Source: Octopus vulgaris (taxonomy: Eukaryota). Taken from it: a stretch of 64,000 nucleotides of DNA. The position numbers were made by a program, and so were the translations under genes. The notes under the pieces were generated by a model. The model was not told where the DNA came from and searched no databases. It saw nothing but the letters and a program-made list of their open reading frames with translations. This document shows positions 1 to 59,504 of the stretch, piece by piece. Where the stretch lies: assembly GCA_951406725.2 (NCBI GenBank), contig OX597823.1, forward strand, positions 97,030,001 through 97,094,000, written 5' to 3'. Every line of letters starts with the position of its first letter. The stretch's first letter is position 1.

Positions 1-316
1 ATAGGTGCTGCATCAATGCACCCATGCCAGTGGCATGTAAAAAGCACCCATCACACTCTGTTAAGTGGTTGGCATAAGGAAGGGCATCCTGCCATAAAAA
101 CCATGCCACAACAGACAGTTGGATCTGAACAGCTCCCTGCTGGTCAGTTCCATGCCAAACTGTCCAACCCATGGAGAGCAGACATTAAACGATAAGTCGT
201 AAATTTCAAAGCAGTGCCCCATCATGGTCACAGTCTAATGAATGAAACAAGTAAAAGATAAAAGAATATAAAAATTGAAAGTGTTGAACAATAAATGAAA
301 TGAATTTTCTACTTAC

Positions 317-15193: not shown

Positions 15194-15887
15194 CTGAGAT
15201 GCAAAAAAAAAAATGCATCAAATAAGTAGAAGATTTGAAGTAGGGTTTTTTTTTTTTTGCTAAATATAAATTTAATTTACCAGAAAACAGGATAACAGTT
15301 CTAAATAATTAAACCAATCCTTTTGAATTTAGTTGGATGTGAAGTGATTATGTATTTTCCATTCATCATTGATTGTCACGCATTCACACAAACAGGATTT
15401 TGTACTATAATAATTCTTTTGTTTTGCTCCCACACATCTGAATTTTATTTTCTAATTCTACAACAGTTTCAGCCATAAAAACAAGGTCATCAGCATCCAG
15501 AAACTTCCAGGAGCAACCTGGAAATCATAAATTTATCTCAAAGCAGATAATTAGAGTTTGTTGCAGTCCTCTGGTTTGCCAGCATCTGTTGAGCCATCCA
15601 ACCCATAGCAGACTGGAAAAGGAATGTTAAATAAATGATGTTGCTGGATGATGGTGATGAAATGCATATATATATATATATATATATATACAAAAAGGGG
15701 TTTGTATGATTGTGTGTAGAGGGATATATATTATTCAAAGACATACCAACTCTGTCTGTTTTTTATGTTTTATTTATATTCTTTATAATATTAATGTAGA
15801 ATATAGAATATATAGTATATATAGTAAAATGAAATGAAATATTGATTGTCTTATTGAATAGATGAAACGTTAAATATAAAATATTAG

Positions 15888-25867: not shown

Positions 25868-26335
25868 TATATATATCTTTTATCGTTTGTTTCAGTCATT
25901 AGACTGCGGTCATGCTGGGCACTGCCTTGAATTTTTTGGTTGAATGAACTGACCCCAGAATTTCTTTCTTAAGCCTGGTACTTATTCTATCAGTCCCTTT
26001 TGCTGAACTGCTAAATTACAAGAATGTAAACACACCAACACTGGTTGTCAAACTGTGATGGGGGACAAACACAGACATAAAGACACACATACATAGATAC
26101 ACACACACACACACACACACACACAGTGGTGGGTAGGTGTGCATTGACAGCTCATAGCTAGGTATGGTCATAAATATTGCCAAGATATATAAGTGTTTCG
26201 AGGAAAGTATGTTTTACATATATATATATATCTCATCGGTAAATCATTAATCCAAAAGAGAAGCACACCCTTAGTTACAGAGCAGTAGAGTATTTAAAGA
26301 ACGTTAGTTATGGTTGGTTGAGGCCACTGGCCATT

Positions 26336-26829: not shown

Positions 26830-27745
26830 TTACCTAGGTGACCCAATTAGCAGCAGAGGAGGTTGTACAGACAGTGTAACTGTTAGAATAAAAATAGGAT
26901 GGAGAAAGTTCTGAGAGCTTTTACCTCTGTTGGCAACCAAAGGTCTTTCTTTCTGAGTGAAGGGAAGATTGTATGATGCATGTGTATGAACTGCGATGCT
27001 GCATGGGACTGAGATGTGGGCCCTGAATGTAGAGGATACATGAAAGCTGGAGAGGAACAAAGCTAGTGGTATGCTCTGCTAGATGTGTGATGTAAGTGTG
27101 CATGTGTGACAGAGCATTGGTCTGTTGAGAGAGAAATGAGGTGCATTGCTATACTCAAGACCTGCCCAACACAACAAAATTATAAAGCACCCAGTAAACT
27201 CTGGTTGGCATTAGGAAGGGCATCTAACTATAGAAACCAAGCCAAAACAAATTATGGAACCTGGTGTGGCCCTTGCCTTGCCAGTTCTTGGCATGTCGTC
27301 CAACCCATGCCAACATGGAAAACGGATGCTAAATGTTAATGATGATGATGATATCGTGCCGGTGGCACGCAATAAGCACCATGCATGCATGGGTCGTTGT
27401 CAGTGCTGCCTGACTGGCTCCCCATGCTGGTGACACGTAAAAAGCACCATCCAAACATGGTCGATGCCAGCCTCTCTGCCCTGACTGGCTCCTGTATCAG
27501 TAGCACGTAAAAAGCACCATCCGAATGTGGTCGATGCTAGTGCTGCCTGACTGGCTCCCGCGCTGGTAACATGTAAAAAGCACCCACTACACTCTCGGAG
27601 TGGTTGGCGTTAGGAAGGGCATGTAGCTATAGAAACACTGCTAAATCATATTGGAGCCTGATGCGGCCTCCTGGCTTCCCAGTCCCCAGTCAGAACCGTC
27701 CAACCCATGCCAGCATCGAGAATGGACGTTAAACGATGATGATGA
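26830..27745 (+). mobile_element. RTE LINE 3' fragments and 3' UTR with about 65-bp subrepeats
   Basis: YLGD..., GRLYDACV..AMLHG peptides; 3' UTR and (GAT)n tails. Confidence 0.7.
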
Positions 27746-28158
27746 TATATATATATATCGACGTATGTATCTTTATCTCTGACTTTGTCTCACACTCTCC
27801 ACCGCTTGACAACCGACGTTGGTTTGTTTACGAACCCTTAACTTAGCGATTTGACAAAGGAGAGCCGATATCAGTACCAAACTGGAAAGTAAAAGCAAAA
27901 ATTAGAACTGGGTCTTGAAACGCTACCTTAAACGCTACCTTAAAACCTCTTCAAAGCGGGGTCCCAGCATGGTCACGGTCGAATAATCGAAACAAGTAAA
28001 CGGTTAAAGAAGAAAAGAAATTAAATGTTACAATAAAATAAAACATATAAATCTTTCTCAGTCGCCCACACGATTTCAGCTTTTTTTTTGTCAAGGGCGA
28101 AAACTGCGTCTGTCAAGTGATCCGTTGTTATCTCCCTTGTCCTTCCTTAATTGCAAAC

Positions 28159-28267
28159 ATGGCGAGCGGAGGTTCGCCAGCACTTCCACCGTGTTTCAAA
28201 CCGATTCAACATTATTTAAAGATTGCCGAGGAACATAGTAAAAGGGATCAAGTTGTTTCATATTACT
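28159..28267 (+). CDS. VTA1: VTA1 homolog, coding exon 1 (MASGGSPALPPCFKPIQHYLKIAEEHSKRDQVVSYY-C)
   Basis: Matches the VTA1/LIP5 N-terminus (LP..FK.IQH.L..A.EH.KRD.VV.YYC). Kozak-like aacATGg; donor t|gtaaga, phase 1. Confidence 0.95.
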
Positions 28268-28471
28268 GTAAGAATGTTATGTCATTTCATTCCTATACCG
28301 ATATCCATTGTTCTTCCTGGTTGTCGTTGGTTTCTTTCTCACTTTGAACATTCCTCTTTTAAATACGTCATTTTTTAAAGACTCTTTCTTTTACCGGACT
28401 TCGTTCAGTTTGTTTACCTCGTTCGCTGCTTACCGTTTCAGTTCTTGCAAATGTCTTAATAATATCGATTT

Positions 28472-28508
<37 letters not shown>

Positions 28509-28788
28509 ATATATATAAAACTAGTATATATATTTATAGATAGATATATACAGAGATATATATGTGTGTGTGTATATATATAGATATTTGTGTGTGTATA
28601 TATGTATGTGTGTATATATACGTGTGTATGCGTATATATATATATAGATAGGCGAAGTTTCGCATGTCGACGACCGAAACTATGCCTATAGATATGTGTG
28701 TGTGTATATATATATGTATGTGTGTGTATATATATTTATATATATCGTGTGTGTATGTATGTATATATATATATATATATCGTGTGTG

Positions 28789-28829
<41 letters not shown>

Positions 28830-28959
28830 TGTGTATGTATATATATATATATATACCGGAGTAAACACATAAATGTGAAACAAGGTGGAAAAAAGAGTAC
28901 TCAAATACCAGTGGTAGAGTAATATGCTTTATTTTAAGCAGCAGAAAATTCAATAAAAT

Positions 28960-28997
28960 CTGTTACTCTGAGTTTCTCGTTGCCGTTCATCAGACAG
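28960..28997 (-). ncRNA. Minimal type-I hammerhead (mirror copy)
   Basis: Exact reverse complement of 29014-29051. Confidence 0.7.
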
Positions 28998-29013
28998 TTT
29001 TTGCTAGCAAAAA

Positions 29014-29051
29014 CTGTCTGATGAACGGCAACGAGAAACTCAGAGTAACAG
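29014..29051 (+). ncRNA. Minimal type-I hammerhead, sense to VTA1 intron 1
   Basis: ctgt-CTGATGA-a-cg-GCAA-cg-a-GAAA-CTCAGA-GTA-acag. Stem I ctgt/acag; GNRA-capped stem II; palindromic stem III ACTC-A-GAGT. Confidence 0.7.
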
Positions 29052-29083
29052 ATTTTGTTGAATTTTCTGCTGCTTAAAATAGA

Positions 29084-29121
<38 letters not shown>

Positions 29122-29628
29122 TGTGTGTATGTGTATATATATATATATACACATACATAGAATATCCATACACACTCATAACTTAATTATTTTGATAGGT
29201 TTCGGCATGATTAACTTAATAGCACCACCTGATATGTATATATATATTAGCATTTTAACGTCCATTTTTCCATGCTTGCATGGGTAAGGCGGAATTCCAA
29301 GAAGCAGATTTTCTTCGGCCCGATGCCCTTCCTTTCGCCAACCTTCACCGTTTTCTAAGCAAAGTGGTATTTCGTTATGGCCAGACATATTTTCGTGGAA
29401 GACTGGAAACGAACGACACCGCTTGTATGACGTTATCACTCGTTTTACATCTACCACACACACACACACACACACGACGAGTTTCCATAGTTTCCACCTA
29501 CCAAGGTTTTGGTTAGTCCGGTGCCATAGTAGAAGCTACTTGCTCAAGGTGCCATGCTGTGGTACTAAACTCGAAACCACACCATATACATACATACATA
29601 CATACATGTATATAATCTAATAGTATCT

Positions 29629-29663
<35 letters not shown>

Positions 29664-30096
29664 CTTTGTAACATTATCATGGGTGATAAATTCTTGTCTC
29701 TTTGTAGAATAAAGTCCTCAAATTTTATAATTTTTCTCTCGTAGAACCAGAAATTAAAACTTGGCAAAGATTCATCCGTTTCTCTCGCCTTAACTTAGAT
29801 ATATTTATATTATAATCCCTTGTAGAGAAACTCCGGAGTATTGCACATGATAAGAAGCATCTAAGCTATAAAGTATTTTACAAATTGTGACTGCTTTGTA
29901 CGGTTGACTGGAAATTCTTACACCACTTATTTTATGTATGTACTAATGTATGTTTATGTGTGTGTGTATATATGTAGTAATGTAACAGTAGTAAAATATG
30001 TCTAATATATTTTGTCAATACGCTACTTGGAGCAGATAGACCTGGACATTCCTGCTGAGATTGAAACTTAAGAGTCATCTGTCGACTTTGATAATG

Positions 30097-30137
<41 letters not shown>

Positions 30138-30921
30138 TCAAATGGGTTGTATATATATATGTGTGTGTTTGTGTGTATAAATATACATAGATACAATCAC
30201 ATACATACACACAGGTAAAGTTGACGGATCTATTCAAAAACAACGACGTCCGGTACAAAACGAGACTACAAAGAAACGATTTTCTGGATTCCTGGAATGT
30301 CTATAAAAATGTTATAGTTTTCGTGTTTTATTGTTTGTAAAATATACCCTAACTGTATAATTAAATCAGTTTAATTAATCACAGGCTTCGAAATTTGCTC
30401 GTAAACTATTATGTAGACTATTTGTGTAGAATCCCCGAATGGCTACAAAATTATTAAAATGTAGTTTTATGTCTATAACATATACAACAGAACGGTAATC
30501 ATCTCAGTTTAATTAATGCTAGTAATCATTTATGTAAAATGATGATTTATTTGTAAATTAGGTGAATTTTTTTATGTGGTATCTTCCGTTTTCTACCCGA
30601 AGGTTGTTGTTTACATAAAGCTTCGGCAAGTTCACACACGTACACACACACTGTGTGTGTGTGTGAGAGCGATTAATATTTTAAGTTCAGGATGTGAAAA
30701 CTGTAAGCAAAACACACCTACACGTACACGAATTGTTTAGCACTCAACTCTACACTATTTTTATTTCTTGGGATTGAAAAGTCATTTTATGTATAATAAC
30801 AAACCGTCCCCTAATCAATAAATAGGGCACTGTCTACAGATTTGGTTGGCATGTGCCTACGAGTGTGTATAAAATTATTCATTCATTGTATTACTGTACA
30901 CACGTACATACATGTCTTTTA

Positions 30922-31321
30922 CTCTTTTACTTGTTTCAGTCATTTGACTGCGGCCATGCTGGAGCACCGCCTTTTAGTCGAGCAAATCAACCCAAGGACT
31001 TATTCTTTGTAAGCCCAGTACTTATTCTATCGGTCTCTTTTGCCGAACCGCTAAGTTACGGGGACGTAAACACACCAGCATCGGTTGTCAAGCAATGCTA
31101 GGGGGACAAACACAGACACACAAACACACACACATACATATATATATATACATATATACGACAGGCTTCTTTCAGTTTCCGTCTACCAAATCCACTCACA
31201 AGGCATTGGTCGGCCCGGGGCTATAGCAGAAGACACTTGCCCAAGATGCCACGCAGTGGGACTGAACCCGGAACCATGTGGTTTGTTAGCAAGCTACTTA
31301 CCACACAGCCACTCCTGCGCC
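30922..31321 (-). mobile_element. Full-length tRNA-derived SINE (young, CpG-rich)
   Basis: Reverse complement of the 9657-10025 family with head, microsatellite and tail. Confidence 0.85.
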
Positions 31322-33121
31322 TGTGTTGATGTTGGTGATTAAATTTCTCAGCAAACCTCATTAAACCATTAAACAGACCTAATGATCACAGAAGCTTGAG
31401 CTCTGATTACCTTGTCTATCTATGACTACATTATTCAATGTGTCTGTCCGATTTGAGGGAGATTTGAGCATGTTGAGCGATCGTGTAAAGGAGCCCTCGT
31501 TGACCTGTGGCCTTTGTGATATTGTTGTTGACATTGTACTTCCCCATGATCAAACATTACTAATGCTTTTGTTATTGTTCAGTTCCAAATCTGTCCTGAT
31601 TGAGCGTTCTACCCTTAGCCACTATTGTTGCCAGATCTGCTCTGACCCTGAGTAGCTGCACCTGTTAGGGTCTCAGCCATAACATGCCAAAGGTGGAAGG
31701 TCACTCAGAGACACCCCAACTAACCCAGAGCAGACGAGGACCTTCAGCTCTTGAGCTGCTGATCTAAGAGAAGACATCTCACTTACAAATCCTGCATCCT
31801 GATAGCTATTGGGCTTGTGAAGCAACTGGAAGTTTTCAGCTTTGACTATGTGTACAGGTGACCATAGGGTGATGGTTGTTTTTTTAGCTGTCTTACTGAA
31901 CCCTCATTTATTGAAGCAATGACAAGAGTTGACAATATTATCAAATGTATCCTTTCCTTGAAGAAACTGTGGTGTGATTTGAGGGAAATTTGTATCTTAC
32001 AGGGCATGCTTCTGCTTAGAGGTCCTTCCTGCCCTCATTGGCTTGATAATATTTTTTATATTATGGCAAGCTGGTGTTTCAGTGTGGACTAAAACCCTTA
32101 GCCGGATGGATTTGCTGGTCTTTGATTCACAGTTCAGACCTATTTTATTTGACTTAGTTGATAGTGCTCTTTCTCTCCATCTCATTTCCTATAAATTCAA
32201 AATTGTACACTCATTGTTGGTGAGCACAATGCTGGCTCAGATTGAACAAGGACTTACTGTATGATGAAAGACATTTCAGCCATGATGATCCCAAATCATT
32301 TTGAAATATACTGTATCCAGGACGATGTTATCTAACATGTCCTTCTGTTTCTAAGACAGTAAGAATGTGATTTGAAGGAGATTTGGCTGCTAGTGATATC
32401 CTTGTCATTATTTAGGCCCTGGTCCTGGTCACTGACTGAAATGGGTTACTGCTGTTCCTGTTTCAAGTACAACACTGATAATCTGGAATCACTTATGATT
32501 TGTACTAATGTACAGGTACCTGTATTTCATTTGATTATTTAAATAAATTTAATATTCATTTAACTTAAGGCAGAATCGTTAGCACACCAGACAAAATACT
32601 TAGTGACATTTCGTCCATCTTTACATTCTGAGTTCAAATTCTGCCAAAGTCAACTTTGCCTTTTGTCCTTTTGGGGTCAATAAAATAAGTACCAATTGAA
32701 CACAGGGGTTAATGTAATTGACTAGACTCCTCCCCTGAAATTACTGGCATTGTGCCAAAATTTGAAGCCTATCTTTGTTTACTTTAGAGAGTGTTGACCA
32801 AGGTGACACCCCCACTTTGGAAAGATCAGTAATTCCTATCATAGCACCTATGATATTAGGTATGATAAAAAAATATTTTTGATCTCCAGATTACAGACCA
32901 TGGTACCCTGTCAAAAACCTGCTCCAGATGGACAAATGCTAGGTATAGTGGTTTACTTCTAGCTCAGAAATTTTCTTGTAGTTTCTCACTAGGAAATATC
33001 TCATCTTAGCACAAACCTGAAGTGTAGCTTCTCTTCCTGATATGTTGTACACTAAGTCTTTCTGTTACATTTGTACCTTAGTCCATCAGTTTGATGCCTC
33101 TGTAGTTGCTACTGTTTAGAG

Positions 33122-33382
33122 CAGGGCTTCTCAACCAGGGTCCACATGGCCCTTGGGGGAGGAGGCATAAAAGATTTTGCTGTTAAAATTTATCTGCAAT
33201 AAATGGGGTATACTTCTGTGGCATTCAAAATATTTTTAATTTTTTAAAAATACAATTCCTAATGAATATTTTAATTATAAAAATGCAATAGGATTTTTTA
33301 AACATTGAATGGCTAGGAAGGTCCATCTGAATAAAATTGGAGCCAAAAGGATCTGTATGCAAAAAATGGTTGAGAACCACTG
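33122..33382 (+). mobile_element. hAT (Charlie-like) MITE
   Basis: TIRs cagggcttctcaacc / ggttgagaaccactg; 8-bp TSD-like gtttagag/ctgtagag. Confidence 0.75.
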
Positions 33383-33928
33383 CTGTAGAGCATCTCATTT
33401 TCCCTTGTAGTTTATGTTGATACTGTTACAACAATTTGCTGGACATGACACCTTCCTATACTACCTCATAGACAATGTGGATTCTTCACACAGCCTCTCT
33501 TTGATTGGATATCTTCTGGTGACTACTTCTGCTAATCCAGCTGCTTTCCTTGCCCTCGTATCCTTTAACTGCACTTTCAGTTACATTGCTTGTCAACTTT
33601 AATAATTGGTCCCCTCTAGTGGGACTGCAGTATTAATTACATGATGCGAGCCAATATTTTAGTGAAAATTTCCAAGAAATATTTGCCACTGCCGAGTGGT
33701 AAAGAACTCTTTTCAGAACCTTTATTTGTGAGATGCGGTTTCAATCCATGGTTGATCTTTTTTCATTTAACTCCTTTCTCATTGTGACATTCGACGTAGC
33801 TCATATAACGGTACTCTTTTCTCATTCTTTGGAGTTCTGCAGCTTAAGTGAAACTGAAGACCCTCTTTTCGGCAATATGATTGTGCCTCATATTTTTGTA
33901 TTTAATTTTTTTTTTTTTTCTACTACAG

Positions 33929-34023
33929 GTCAGCTCTATGCCTTTCAAAAAGCAATGGGAATTGATAAGAAGTCTCCAGATTGCAGGGACTATTTAATGA
34001 TGCTGATGGATTCTCTAGAAATG
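33929..34023 (+). CDS. VTA1: VTA1 exon 2 (QLYAFQKAMGIDKKSPDCRDYLMMLMDSLEM)
   Basis: Poly(T)...tacag| acceptor and |gtatgt donor; phase 1 to 0; MIT-domain homology. Confidence 0.95.
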
Positions 34024-44998: not shown

Positions 44999-45147
44999 TA
45001 AAAGTTCCTGTGATAGTCTTTCTTTATTTCACAGTCTTTTGTCTTTAAAAAAACCCCAAAATAGTTGTATATTTTTCTTTCTCTTTTTCATGTTTTGTTC
45101 TTCTCCTTGTTTATTTTATGTTTTCGTTTGTGATTTCATGTGACCAG

Positions 45148-45275
45148 TCGAAACAGCAACTAGCTGATAGCGATGCCATCCAGTCAGAAACAGTTGGGCA
45201 GGCGTATCTGGAGGAGTATGCCCTCAAGTTTTTCATTGTGGCTGACAACAAAGACAGAGCTGCTCAATTTGATAA
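45148..45275 (+). CDS. VTA1: VTA1 exon 3 (SKQQLADSDAIQSETVGQAYLEEYALKFFIVADNKDRAAQFD-K)
   Basis: ccag| acceptor and aa|gtatgt donor; phase 0 to 2; conserved LE.YALK.F..ADN.DRA. Confidence 0.95.
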
Positions 45276-45446
45276 GTATGTATTGTTTGGAGCCAAAAAT
45301 TATTCATCAGAAACACACACACACACACACAGAGAGAGTCTCAGTTAAGTCAATATATGCTGTCATCTCTACCCCTGATACCCTCTCTTCTTCCTGTCAT
45401 TCATCTCTCTCTCTTTCTTTCTCACTTACTCCCACTTCTATCCTGT

Positions 45447-58822: not shown

Positions 58823-58918
58823 CTCATATTCATCATCTAACATAAACACCATCCAGTAACTGAACCCATTGAAAGAATATTCTTCTTCTTATTGCTCTTC
58901 ATATTTTCTGTTAATCAG

Positions 58919-58994
58919 GAACTTGGTGAAGACGTTTTATACAGCAGGATTGTTGTTTGATGTTTTATCCGTCTTTGGCGAAACTGATGAAGAC
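58919..58994 (+). CDS. VTA1: VTA1 exon 4 (NLVKTFYTAGLLFDVLSVFGETDED)
   Basis: tcag| acceptor and |gtgagt donor; phase 2 to 0. Confidence 0.95.
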
Positions 58995-59504
58995 GTGAGT
59001 AAATTTTCAATTCGTTTGTGTTTTTATCTTTTACTTATTAGACTGAATGAATTGATCCCAGTATATATATATATCTTATCAAAGCCCTGTACTTATTCTA
59101 TCAGTCTCTTTTGCCAAAGGGACATAAACACATCAACATCGGTTGTCAAACAGTGGTGGGGAACAAACACAGACTCAGAGATGCACATAGATATGTGTGT
59201 GTGTGTATATAAATGTATATATTTATATAAACTAGGATAAAAATCATGTAAATGATAATATCAAGTGGCCAACATGATATAAAACCTTGTGGTTAAATTA
59301 TACTAAAATAATAATTATATATATCAATTATATAATTAAATAAAGGAACAGGAAAATACCCTGCTCCAACATGTTGAAAGAATACGACAAAAAACATTAT
59401 AAAACCACCTTTAGCTCCTGCAAAAATACGGGTTGTAGATGAGCAAATGATAAATACAAATAAAACTCTACAGTCAATTATTATTATTTTAATTTATATA
59501 TATA

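What the first reader, a model, noticed from the sequence alone, without database searches (positions are those of the whole stretch)
28922..29089. Double-hammerhead palindrome in VTA1 intron 1
Seen: a 168-bp palindrome 0.65 kb after exon 1, with an intact minimal hammerhead on each strand, so transcription in either direction yields ribozyme plus anti-ribozyme. In the VTA1 pre-mRNA the antisense arm is made first and should trap the ribozyme in a hairpin of about 80 bp. Established: coleoids have extensive ADAR editing of dsRNA. Inference: editing or Dicer processing could alter whether the ribozyme is released, forming a possible switch.
Basis: partly seen in the sequence, partly recalled or inferred. 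Interest (0 to 1): 0.7.

Follow-up and report, generated by a model that had tools for sequence, protein, structure and literature searches.

The report
Mirror-image Penelope retrotransposon stub in intron
The hairpin in the first intron of VTA1 is real, but it is one of at least 1,373 similar head-to-head stubs of a Penelope-type jumping gene in this genome, likely a by-product of how the element inserts, and its predicted self-cutting RNA is unlikely to be a switch for the gene.

Summary
The palindrome, both minimal hammerhead motifs and the place in VTA1 intron 1 are confirmed. The real unit is larger: 229 bp (28856-29084) between (TA)n runs, with a 79-bp stem and an unpaired 71-nt tail. 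Its long arm matches the 5' end of a near full-length Penelope-like element elsewhere in the genome (1 mismatch in 149). That element encodes RT plus a C-terminal GIY-YIG nuclease with Hydra-clade motifs. The genome holds 5,300 exact tail ends, at least 1,373 double-hammerhead palindromes, and 144 with this exact centre. 53 of 55 centre-picked palindromes have one tailed and one short end. Arms stop near a common 5' boundary, not at the ribozyme cut, and join at short overlaps (here CTAG). Most likely both target strands primed reverse transcription. The hammerhead is the dimer-needing type, has no same-strand partner in the window, and stays paired in simulations of full editing, so a VTA1 switch is improbable. 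Editing, small RNAs, cleavage and polymorphism at this locus could not be tested. The architecture is published, and this scan has noted it before on other DNA.

The parts
28856..29084 (.). Whole insertion (229 bp): two head-to-head, 5'-truncated ends of a Penelope-like element
   Evidence: Boundaries shared with dispersed copies; (TA)n on both sides
28856..29007 (-). Long arm: pLTR from family position +4 to +84, plus the tail
   Evidence: 1 mismatch in 149 to the 5' end of near full-length copy L032
28856..28926 (-). 71-nt unpaired tail, the sequence that follows the upstream pLTR and leads into the ORF in the parent
   Evidence: 5,300 exact matches to its TA-joined end
28898..28921 (-). Small bulged hairpin at the start of the tail (predicted; not significant by itself, z -1.0)
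29004..29084 (+). Short arm: pLTR from +4 to +84, ending at the short terminus next to (TA)n
29004..29007 (.). Self-complementary CTAG shared by both arms: the junction and centre of the palindrome
   Evidence: 4-nt overlap; the same 30-nt centre at 144 loci
29014..29051 (+). Minimal type I hammerhead motif: stem I CTGT/ACAG, core CTGATGA 29018-29024, short stem II with GCAA loop, GAAA 29035-29038, palindromic stem/loop III, predicted cut 29047/29048
   Evidence: activity untested
28960..28997 (-). Mirror copy of the hammerhead motif (antisense in VTA1 pre-mRNA)
28786..28855 (.). Left (TA)n-rich target flank
29085..29119 (.). Right (TA)n target flank
28159..28267 (+). VTA1 exon 1, coding part (host gene)
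33929..34023 (+). VTA1 exon 2 candidate, which closes intron 1 (28268-33928)
   Evidence: phase-matched acceptor and donor; peptide fills the gap between the Vta1 matches

Best explanation
This is a young, 229-bp insertion of two head-to-head ends of a Hydra-like Penelope retroelement in a (TA)n run of VTA1 intron 1, likely made when the element's enzyme copied its RNA twice, once from each cut target strand, and it is most likely neutral for the gene. Shown: family identity, parent ORF, copy numbers, the one-tail/one-short-end rule, the common 5' boundary, junction overlaps. Inferred steps: (1) the RT-endonuclease nicks both strands of (TA)n; (2) one 3' end primes at +84, the other 71 nt further on at +155; (3) both cDNAs run over the uncleaved hammerhead to the RNA's 5' end near +1 (CCATTCT, an initiator-like motif by recalled consensus); (4) their 3' ends anneal at CTAG and are filled in. 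The two hammerheads are passengers of the pLTR. In VTA1 pre-mRNA the hairpin is predicted to keep the ribozyme off; it may be edited like other intronic repeats and is then spliced out.
For: Parent: L032 has pLTR-tail-ORF-pLTR with RWK, DKT, YRDDG and a C-terminal VYRA/YTG nuclease; Atlas neighbours carry RVT_1 and GIY-YIG in 21-49% of members where listed. Numbers: 5,300 tail ends, 8,899 pLTR-end motifs, 1,373 double-hammerhead centres, 144 identical centres; reversed-pattern controls 0. Of 90 tail-picked copies (the first 90 listed on contig C1), at least 58 have an inverted short arm within 60 nt and 12 have a long arm running over 100 nt upstream. 5 of 6 larger stretches fetched show the same plan with arms of 0.7-2.7 kb. 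Of 55 centre-picked palindromes the script called 51 tail+short; two more (L157, L181) are tail+short on reading the output, two have a broken partner end, none is short+short. Arm 5' ends cluster at 0..+6: 22 of 58 short arms, 19 of 90 long arms; at the ribozyme cut (+47..49) 0 of 58 and 2 of 90. Overlap of at least 1 nt in 31 of 37 filler-free junctions, or 14 of 16 by a strict measure, against 47% at random. The short arm reaches further 5' than the long arm in 25 of 58, the reverse in 11, and L032 ends in the short terminus without an inverted arm; plain fold-back does not give either. In vitro, a Poseidon PLE nicks and extends both strands, starts at two internal sites that bound the tail, and uses uncleaved RNA (PMC11167929).
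Against: The CTAG centre also fits a cDNA folding back on itself with a 2-nt loop, and later deletions in a palindrome's centre could give asymmetric junctions. Paired arms share subfamily markers (0.07 versus 2.17 mismatches for unpaired arms), which fits one RNA but equally self-copying or conversion. In vitro the two strands did not differ in start site, so the strict pairing is not yet explained. The transcription start is inferred only. Pfam gave no hit on the parent ORF and no tree was built. No fully open ORF was found among the 9 long stretches examined. Neutrality at VTA1 is inferred, not measured.
Confidence: 0.85

Rival explanations
1. Same element, other route: one cDNA primed at the tail end reaches the RNA 5' end, folds back at CTAG and copies itself (or self-priming on an antisense template); the nuclease then resolves the second end at +84. 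Asymmetric copies are later deletions.
For: Zero-spacer centre at 144 loci; paired arms nearly always of one subfamily; self-priming proposed for PLE junction palindromes (PMC3846280, passages); tail ascribed to nuclease resolution (PMC8557442, passage).
Against: 25 of 58 copies have a short arm with 5' sequence that the long arm lacks, several long arms stop inside the tail, and the short terminus occurs without an inverted arm (L032).
Confidence: 0.25
2. One reading: ADAR editing or Dicer cutting of the hairpin frees the sense hammerhead, which cleaves VTA1 pre-mRNA at 29047/29048 and tunes VTA1 output.
For: Geometry is as described. Coleoid editing of intronic repeats is documented. An intronic ribozyme can affect its host gene (Cpeb3, PMC10919898; search listing only). 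A PLE hammerhead can be protein-assisted.
Against: One of at least 1,373 such loci; young; dimer-type ribozyme without a same-strand partner in the window; active monomer fold +0.5 kcal/mol with ensemble share 7e-6 even without the antisense arm; hairpin survives full simulated editing; editing of the sense arm would hit core adenosines; Dicer cutting would destroy the motif (inference).
Confidence: 0.03
3. The copy has no ribozyme role, but its transcribed 79-bp hairpin feeds small-RNA or editing defence against the parent element, as part of a large pool of such hairpins.
For: Long near-perfect stem in a host intron; PLE small RNAs are reported in rotifer and fly; contigs from three runs guessed to be RNA cover the parent in 30 of 30 bins.
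Against: No small-RNA or raw-read data were available; the kinds of change in the RNA-guess contigs resemble those of the DNA run.
Confidence: 0.2

Closest known systems
Inverted, 5'-truncated pLTR insertions of endonuclease-positive Penelope-like elements (PMC3846280; PMC8557442 Fig. 2 legend; PMC4209133)
   Same: Head-to-head pLTRs with a palindrome at the junction, tail on one end only, microsatellite target, hammerheads close together on opposite strands.
   Different: No ORF between the arms; tail 71 nt rather than 30-40; here counted genome-wide (1,373 centres; 53 of 55 with exactly one tail).
Hydra clade of PLEs (Craig et al. 2021, PMC8557442), e.g. Hydra-1_Obim, Hydra-2_Amil
   Same: Parent has RWK, DKT, CxCx5C linker (in L031 and L033), CxxC and CxH beside the conserved E and N, C-terminal nuclease, (TA)n target. 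A coral consensus in the supplement (by its order Hydra-2_Amil) shows the same CTGT/ACAG stem I and ACTC-N-GAGTA stem III.
   Different: Not Hydra-1_Obim itself: its listed hammerhead differs in sequence. L032 spans about 3.45 kb against the usual <3 kb. No phylogeny was run.
Poseidon element PAc of Anolis (Frangieh et al. 2024, PMC11167929)
   Same: Two internal start sites bounding the tail, both strands nicked and extended, AT-rich target, uncleaved RNA used.
   Different: Other clade; in vitro the strands did not differ in start site, whereas here the ends pair one of each.
Non-LTR retrozymes (bioRxiv 10.64898/2026.07.22.740005, part 1 of 5 read)
   Same: Non-coding, PLE-derived, type I hammerhead.
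   Different: Retrozymes are direct tandem repeats with two same-strand ribozymes; this is an inverted pair, so no unit can be cut out and circularised.

Membership tests
EN+ Penelope-like element insertion | Parent ORF with RT and C-terminal GIY-YIG nuclease | tested here: met
   L032 ORF motifs; Atlas neighbours; Pfam itself gave no hit
EN+ Penelope-like element insertion | pLTRs flanking the ORF, each with a hammerhead | tested here: met
   L032
EN+ Penelope-like element insertion | Inverted 5'-truncated copy at the 5' end, tail at one end only | tested here: met
EN+ Penelope-like element insertion | Target-site duplication | tested here: inconclusive
   Both flanks are (TA)n, so none can be read
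Hydra clade | RWK motif and DKT in place of DKG | tested here: met
   RLRWKA and NSDKTR in L032 against PMC8557442 section 11
Hydra clade | CxCx5C linker; CxxC and CxH beside the conserved E and N; no internal CCHH | tested here: met
   CNCKNESSC in L031 and L033, second C changed to F in L032, L139, L141; C..C..E and N..CRH present; absence of CCHH judged by eye from the translation
Hydra clade | Insertion into (TA)n | tested here: met
Hydra clade | Placement in the clade on an RT tree | not tested
   Reference proteins were seen only as passages of a supplement
Minimal type I PLE hammerhead | Core CUGANGA, GAAA, NUH triplet, short stem I | tested here: met
Minimal type I PLE hammerhead | Palindromic stem/loop III for dimer formation | tested here: met
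   ACTC-N-GAGTA in 57 of 62 distinct motifs, centre base variable; self-duplex -7.4 kcal/mol
Minimal type I PLE hammerhead | G10.1-C11.1 pair closing stem II | tested here: not met
   A-A in this copy; A-T 26, A-A 20, A-G 12, A-C 4 of 62; feature from PMC4209133
Minimal type I PLE hammerhead | Self-cleavage | not testable with these tools
   Needs an in vitro assay; no Rfam hammerhead model matched at E<=1
Non-LTR retrozyme | At least two same-strand hammerheads in direct tandem units | tested here: not met
   One motif per strand; no other family copy in the window
microRNA precursor (mir-745 model) | Rfam gathering score | tested here: not met
   39 bits against 62, equal on both strands
Host-regulatory intronic ribozyme (Cpeb3-like) | Single-locus conservation across species and cleavage in pre-mRNA | not testable with these tools
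   No related genomes are held; the high copy number argues against it

The most novel reading that the evidence does not exclude
An editing-gated ribozyme switch: ADAR opens the antisense arm, and the freed hammerhead cuts VTA1 pre-mRNA with a partner supplied in trans by another family transcript, possibly helped by the element's own protein, so that over a thousand such hairpins tie host splicing to retroelement activity and to editing level.
Probability: 0.03. Interest if true: 0.7.

Novelty: new member of a known kind. Interest (0 to 1): 0.2.

Why it matters
As a locus it is ordinary. As a family it is a large natural record of how Penelope elements insert, an open question: the near-strict one-tail/one-short-end rule, the shared 5' boundary and the same-subfamily arms give countable predictions for the in vitro system of PMC11167929. 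It also warns that double-hammerhead hairpins in coleoid introns are expected by chance, about one per 2 Mb here.

Tried and rejected
Rfam: no hammerhead family at E<=1; mir-745 and mir-196 hits are below their gathering scores and strand-symmetric. Pfam and PDB sequences gave nothing for the parent ORF. Sequencing runs: 24 listed, all as assembled contigs, no RNA holder on record; so RNA ends, strand, editing and small RNAs were out of reach. On the parent copy, contigs of one DNA-guess and three RNA-guess runs cover 30 of 30 bins; T>C versus C>T counts were 10/16 (DNA) and 35/36, 15/22, 36/39 (RNA guess), which is inconclusive for editing. I considered that the G at 29082 records editing or a templated change at insertion, because it was common among the hits; that came from the query, as 0 of the first 100 listed ends carry it, so I dropped the idea. 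Arm ends at the ribozyme cut are not enriched. The strict microhomology measure kept only 16 of 57 junctions, because subfamily differences break exact matching. The third hammerhead-like match at 15466-15493 reads as ADDLVFMAET, an RT-like motif (recalled), and was set aside. Lunse et al. 2017 is not held; I know it only through PMC6765202. A search for Penelope + twin priming + inverted gave 2 papers, neither on PLE mechanism by title or abstract; octopus + Penelope + hammerhead gave 4 listed, of which PMC8557442 was relevant. bioRxiv supplements and most subscription papers were not visible and may already describe this family.

Full report
Observation. The sequence is as described. The arms 28922-29005 and 29006-29089 are 96% complementary with no spacer, and the region folds far better than 200 shuffles (z -28). 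A hammerhead core lies on each strand, with the GUA triplet ending at 29047. The host gene is VTA1: exon 1 from 28159 to a donor at 28268, an exon 2 candidate at 33929, and further Vta1 matches at window 45136-45282 and 58917-59003. Only one of these matches passes the Pfam cut-off, but they are collinear. The palindrome is therefore in intron 1.

Boundaries. Copies elsewhere in the genome share the sequence from 28856 to 29084 and lie in (TA)n. The unit is 229 bp: a long arm on the minus strand with a 71-nt tail (28856-29007) and a short arm on the plus strand (29004-29084), sharing CTAG. The arms pair over 79 bp with 2 mismatches; each arm is 1 mismatch from the commonest family type over 71 nt, so the insertion is young.

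Parent. Upstream of three hits I found one element. L032 reads pLTR, tail, a frameshifted ORF, about 1 kb of 3' sequence, pLTR, short end, (TA)n. The window's long arm differs from its 5' end at 1 of 149 bases. The ORF has RWK, DKT, YRDDG, a CxCx5C linker (intact in L031 and L033) and a C-terminal nuclease with CxxC and CxH. These are the features given for the Hydra clade (PMC8557442, section 11 read). The Atlas places the protein with RVT_1 / GIY-YIG clusters; Pfam and PDB gave no hit. No tree was built, so 'Hydra-like' rests on motifs.

Numbers. Exact patterns give 5,300 tail ends joined to TA, 8,899 pLTR-end motifs, 1,373 loci with two facing hammerhead starts within 30 nt (this pattern admits a variant core) and 144 loci with the window's exact 30-nt centre. 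Reversed controls gave 0. That is about one such palindrome per 2 Mb, so finding some in introns needs no special cause (inference).

Anatomy of the family. I read the first 90 of the 100 listed tail ends on contig C1. At least 58 have an inverted short arm within 60 nt; 12 have a long arm running over 100 nt upstream; the rest end in flank or were missed by the script. Of six larger stretches fetched, five show the same head-to-head plan with arms of 0.7-2.7 kb; in the sixth the partner end was not inside the stretch. To test end pairing without bias I took 55 loci picked by their centre (15, 20 more from its list, 20). The script called 51 tail+short; L157 and L181 are also tail+short on inspection; two have a damaged end. 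Arm 5' ends pile up at family positions 0 to +6 (22 of 58 short, 19 of 90 long) and not at the ribozyme cut. Filler-free junctions overlap by at least 1 nt in 31 of 37 cases by a loose measure, which can inflate overlaps, and in 14 of 16 by a strict one, against 47% at random. 21 of 58 junctions carry filler bases.

Mechanism. Frangieh et al. (PMC11167929, parts 1-2 of 4 read) show in vitro that a PLE protein nicks and extends both strands, starts at two internal sites that bound the tail, and uses uncleaved RNA. The simplest reading here is two cDNAs, one per target strand, started at +84 and +155, that run to the RNA's 5' end and anneal. In favour: the short arm reaches further 5' than the long arm in 25 of 58 copies, the reverse in 11, and the short end also occurs without an inverted arm. 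Against: the CTAG centre also fits fold-back with a 2-nt loop, central deletions could make asymmetry later, and paired arms share subfamily markers. Arkhipova et al. favoured self-priming for such junctions (PMC3846280, passages). I put two-strand priming at about 0.7; the family assignment is near certain.

The ribozyme. Core and triplet are canonical. Stem I is 4 bp, stem II is closed by A-A here, and stem/loop III is a palindrome with a variable centre in 57 of 62 distinct motifs (loci overlap, so distinct sequences were counted). Cervera and de la Pena (PMC4209133, parts 1-2 of 4 read) found such motifs in pLTRs, noted pairs on opposite strands 100-700 bp apart, and saw no monomer cleavage and low dimer cleavage. 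A review says the same, citing Lunse et al. (PMC6765202, passages). In VTA1 pre-mRNA only one sense motif is present in the window. The hairpin is -129 kcal/mol; with all 21 antisense adenosines read as G it is -116, and as non-pairing -58. These are secondary-structure energies without inosine or tertiary terms, but the gap is wide.

Expression and editing. Only contig-level runs were listed. RNA-guess contigs cover the parent, but they cannot show ends, strand or editing, and their spectrum of changes resembles the DNA run. Editing of repeats in introns is general in coleoids (PMC9068888, passages), so some editing of this hairpin would be unsurprising and would not by itself show a switch.

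Verdict. A real but ordinary feature: a new member of a published kind, noted before by this scan for other families. Interest 0.2, mostly for the family-wide record of the insertion mechanism.

Noticed in passing
window 28647-28689: A 43-nt imperfect hairpin with facing GAAAC motifs in (TA)n, 170 bp left of the element (z -5.1); a 20-nt probe matched only here. Possibly a worn stub of another PLE family.
   Followed up: partly
family-wide, e.g. L008, L074, L166: Older subfamilies have C at core position 4 (41 of 62 distinct motifs) and an A-U closed stem II; the young subfamily, including this copy, has the canonical U but an A-A closing pair.
   Followed up: partly
window 28898-28921 (-): The bulged hairpin at the start of the tail resembles sequence downstream of the hammerhead in a coral Hydra-clade consensus seen in a supplement passage; it lies just 3' of the short start site.
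   Followed up: partly
L139, L140, L141, L143, L144: Long arms read ORF-3'UTR-pLTR-tail, so their templates were tandem or circular RNAs; such kb-size inverted pairs would form very long hairpins if transcribed.
   Followed up: partly
L130, L063, L090, L096: Junction fillers copied from nearby arm sequence, of the kind left by microhomology-mediated end joining.
   Followed up: no
window 15466-15493 (-): Third CTGATGA..GAAAC match; reads as an RT-like peptide of another retroelement (motif recalled).
   Followed up: no
window 27181-27746, 26000-26064, 27804-27863, 31034-31104: Tandem and dispersed SINE-like repeats around the VTA1 promoter, including an inverted pair 27804-27863 / 31034-31093 across exon 1.
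   Followed up: no
L005 = G000:C1:174027120-174027350: A sister copy lies about 25 bp after an apparent splice donor of another gene's exon; a better test case for an effect on splicing.
   Followed up: no
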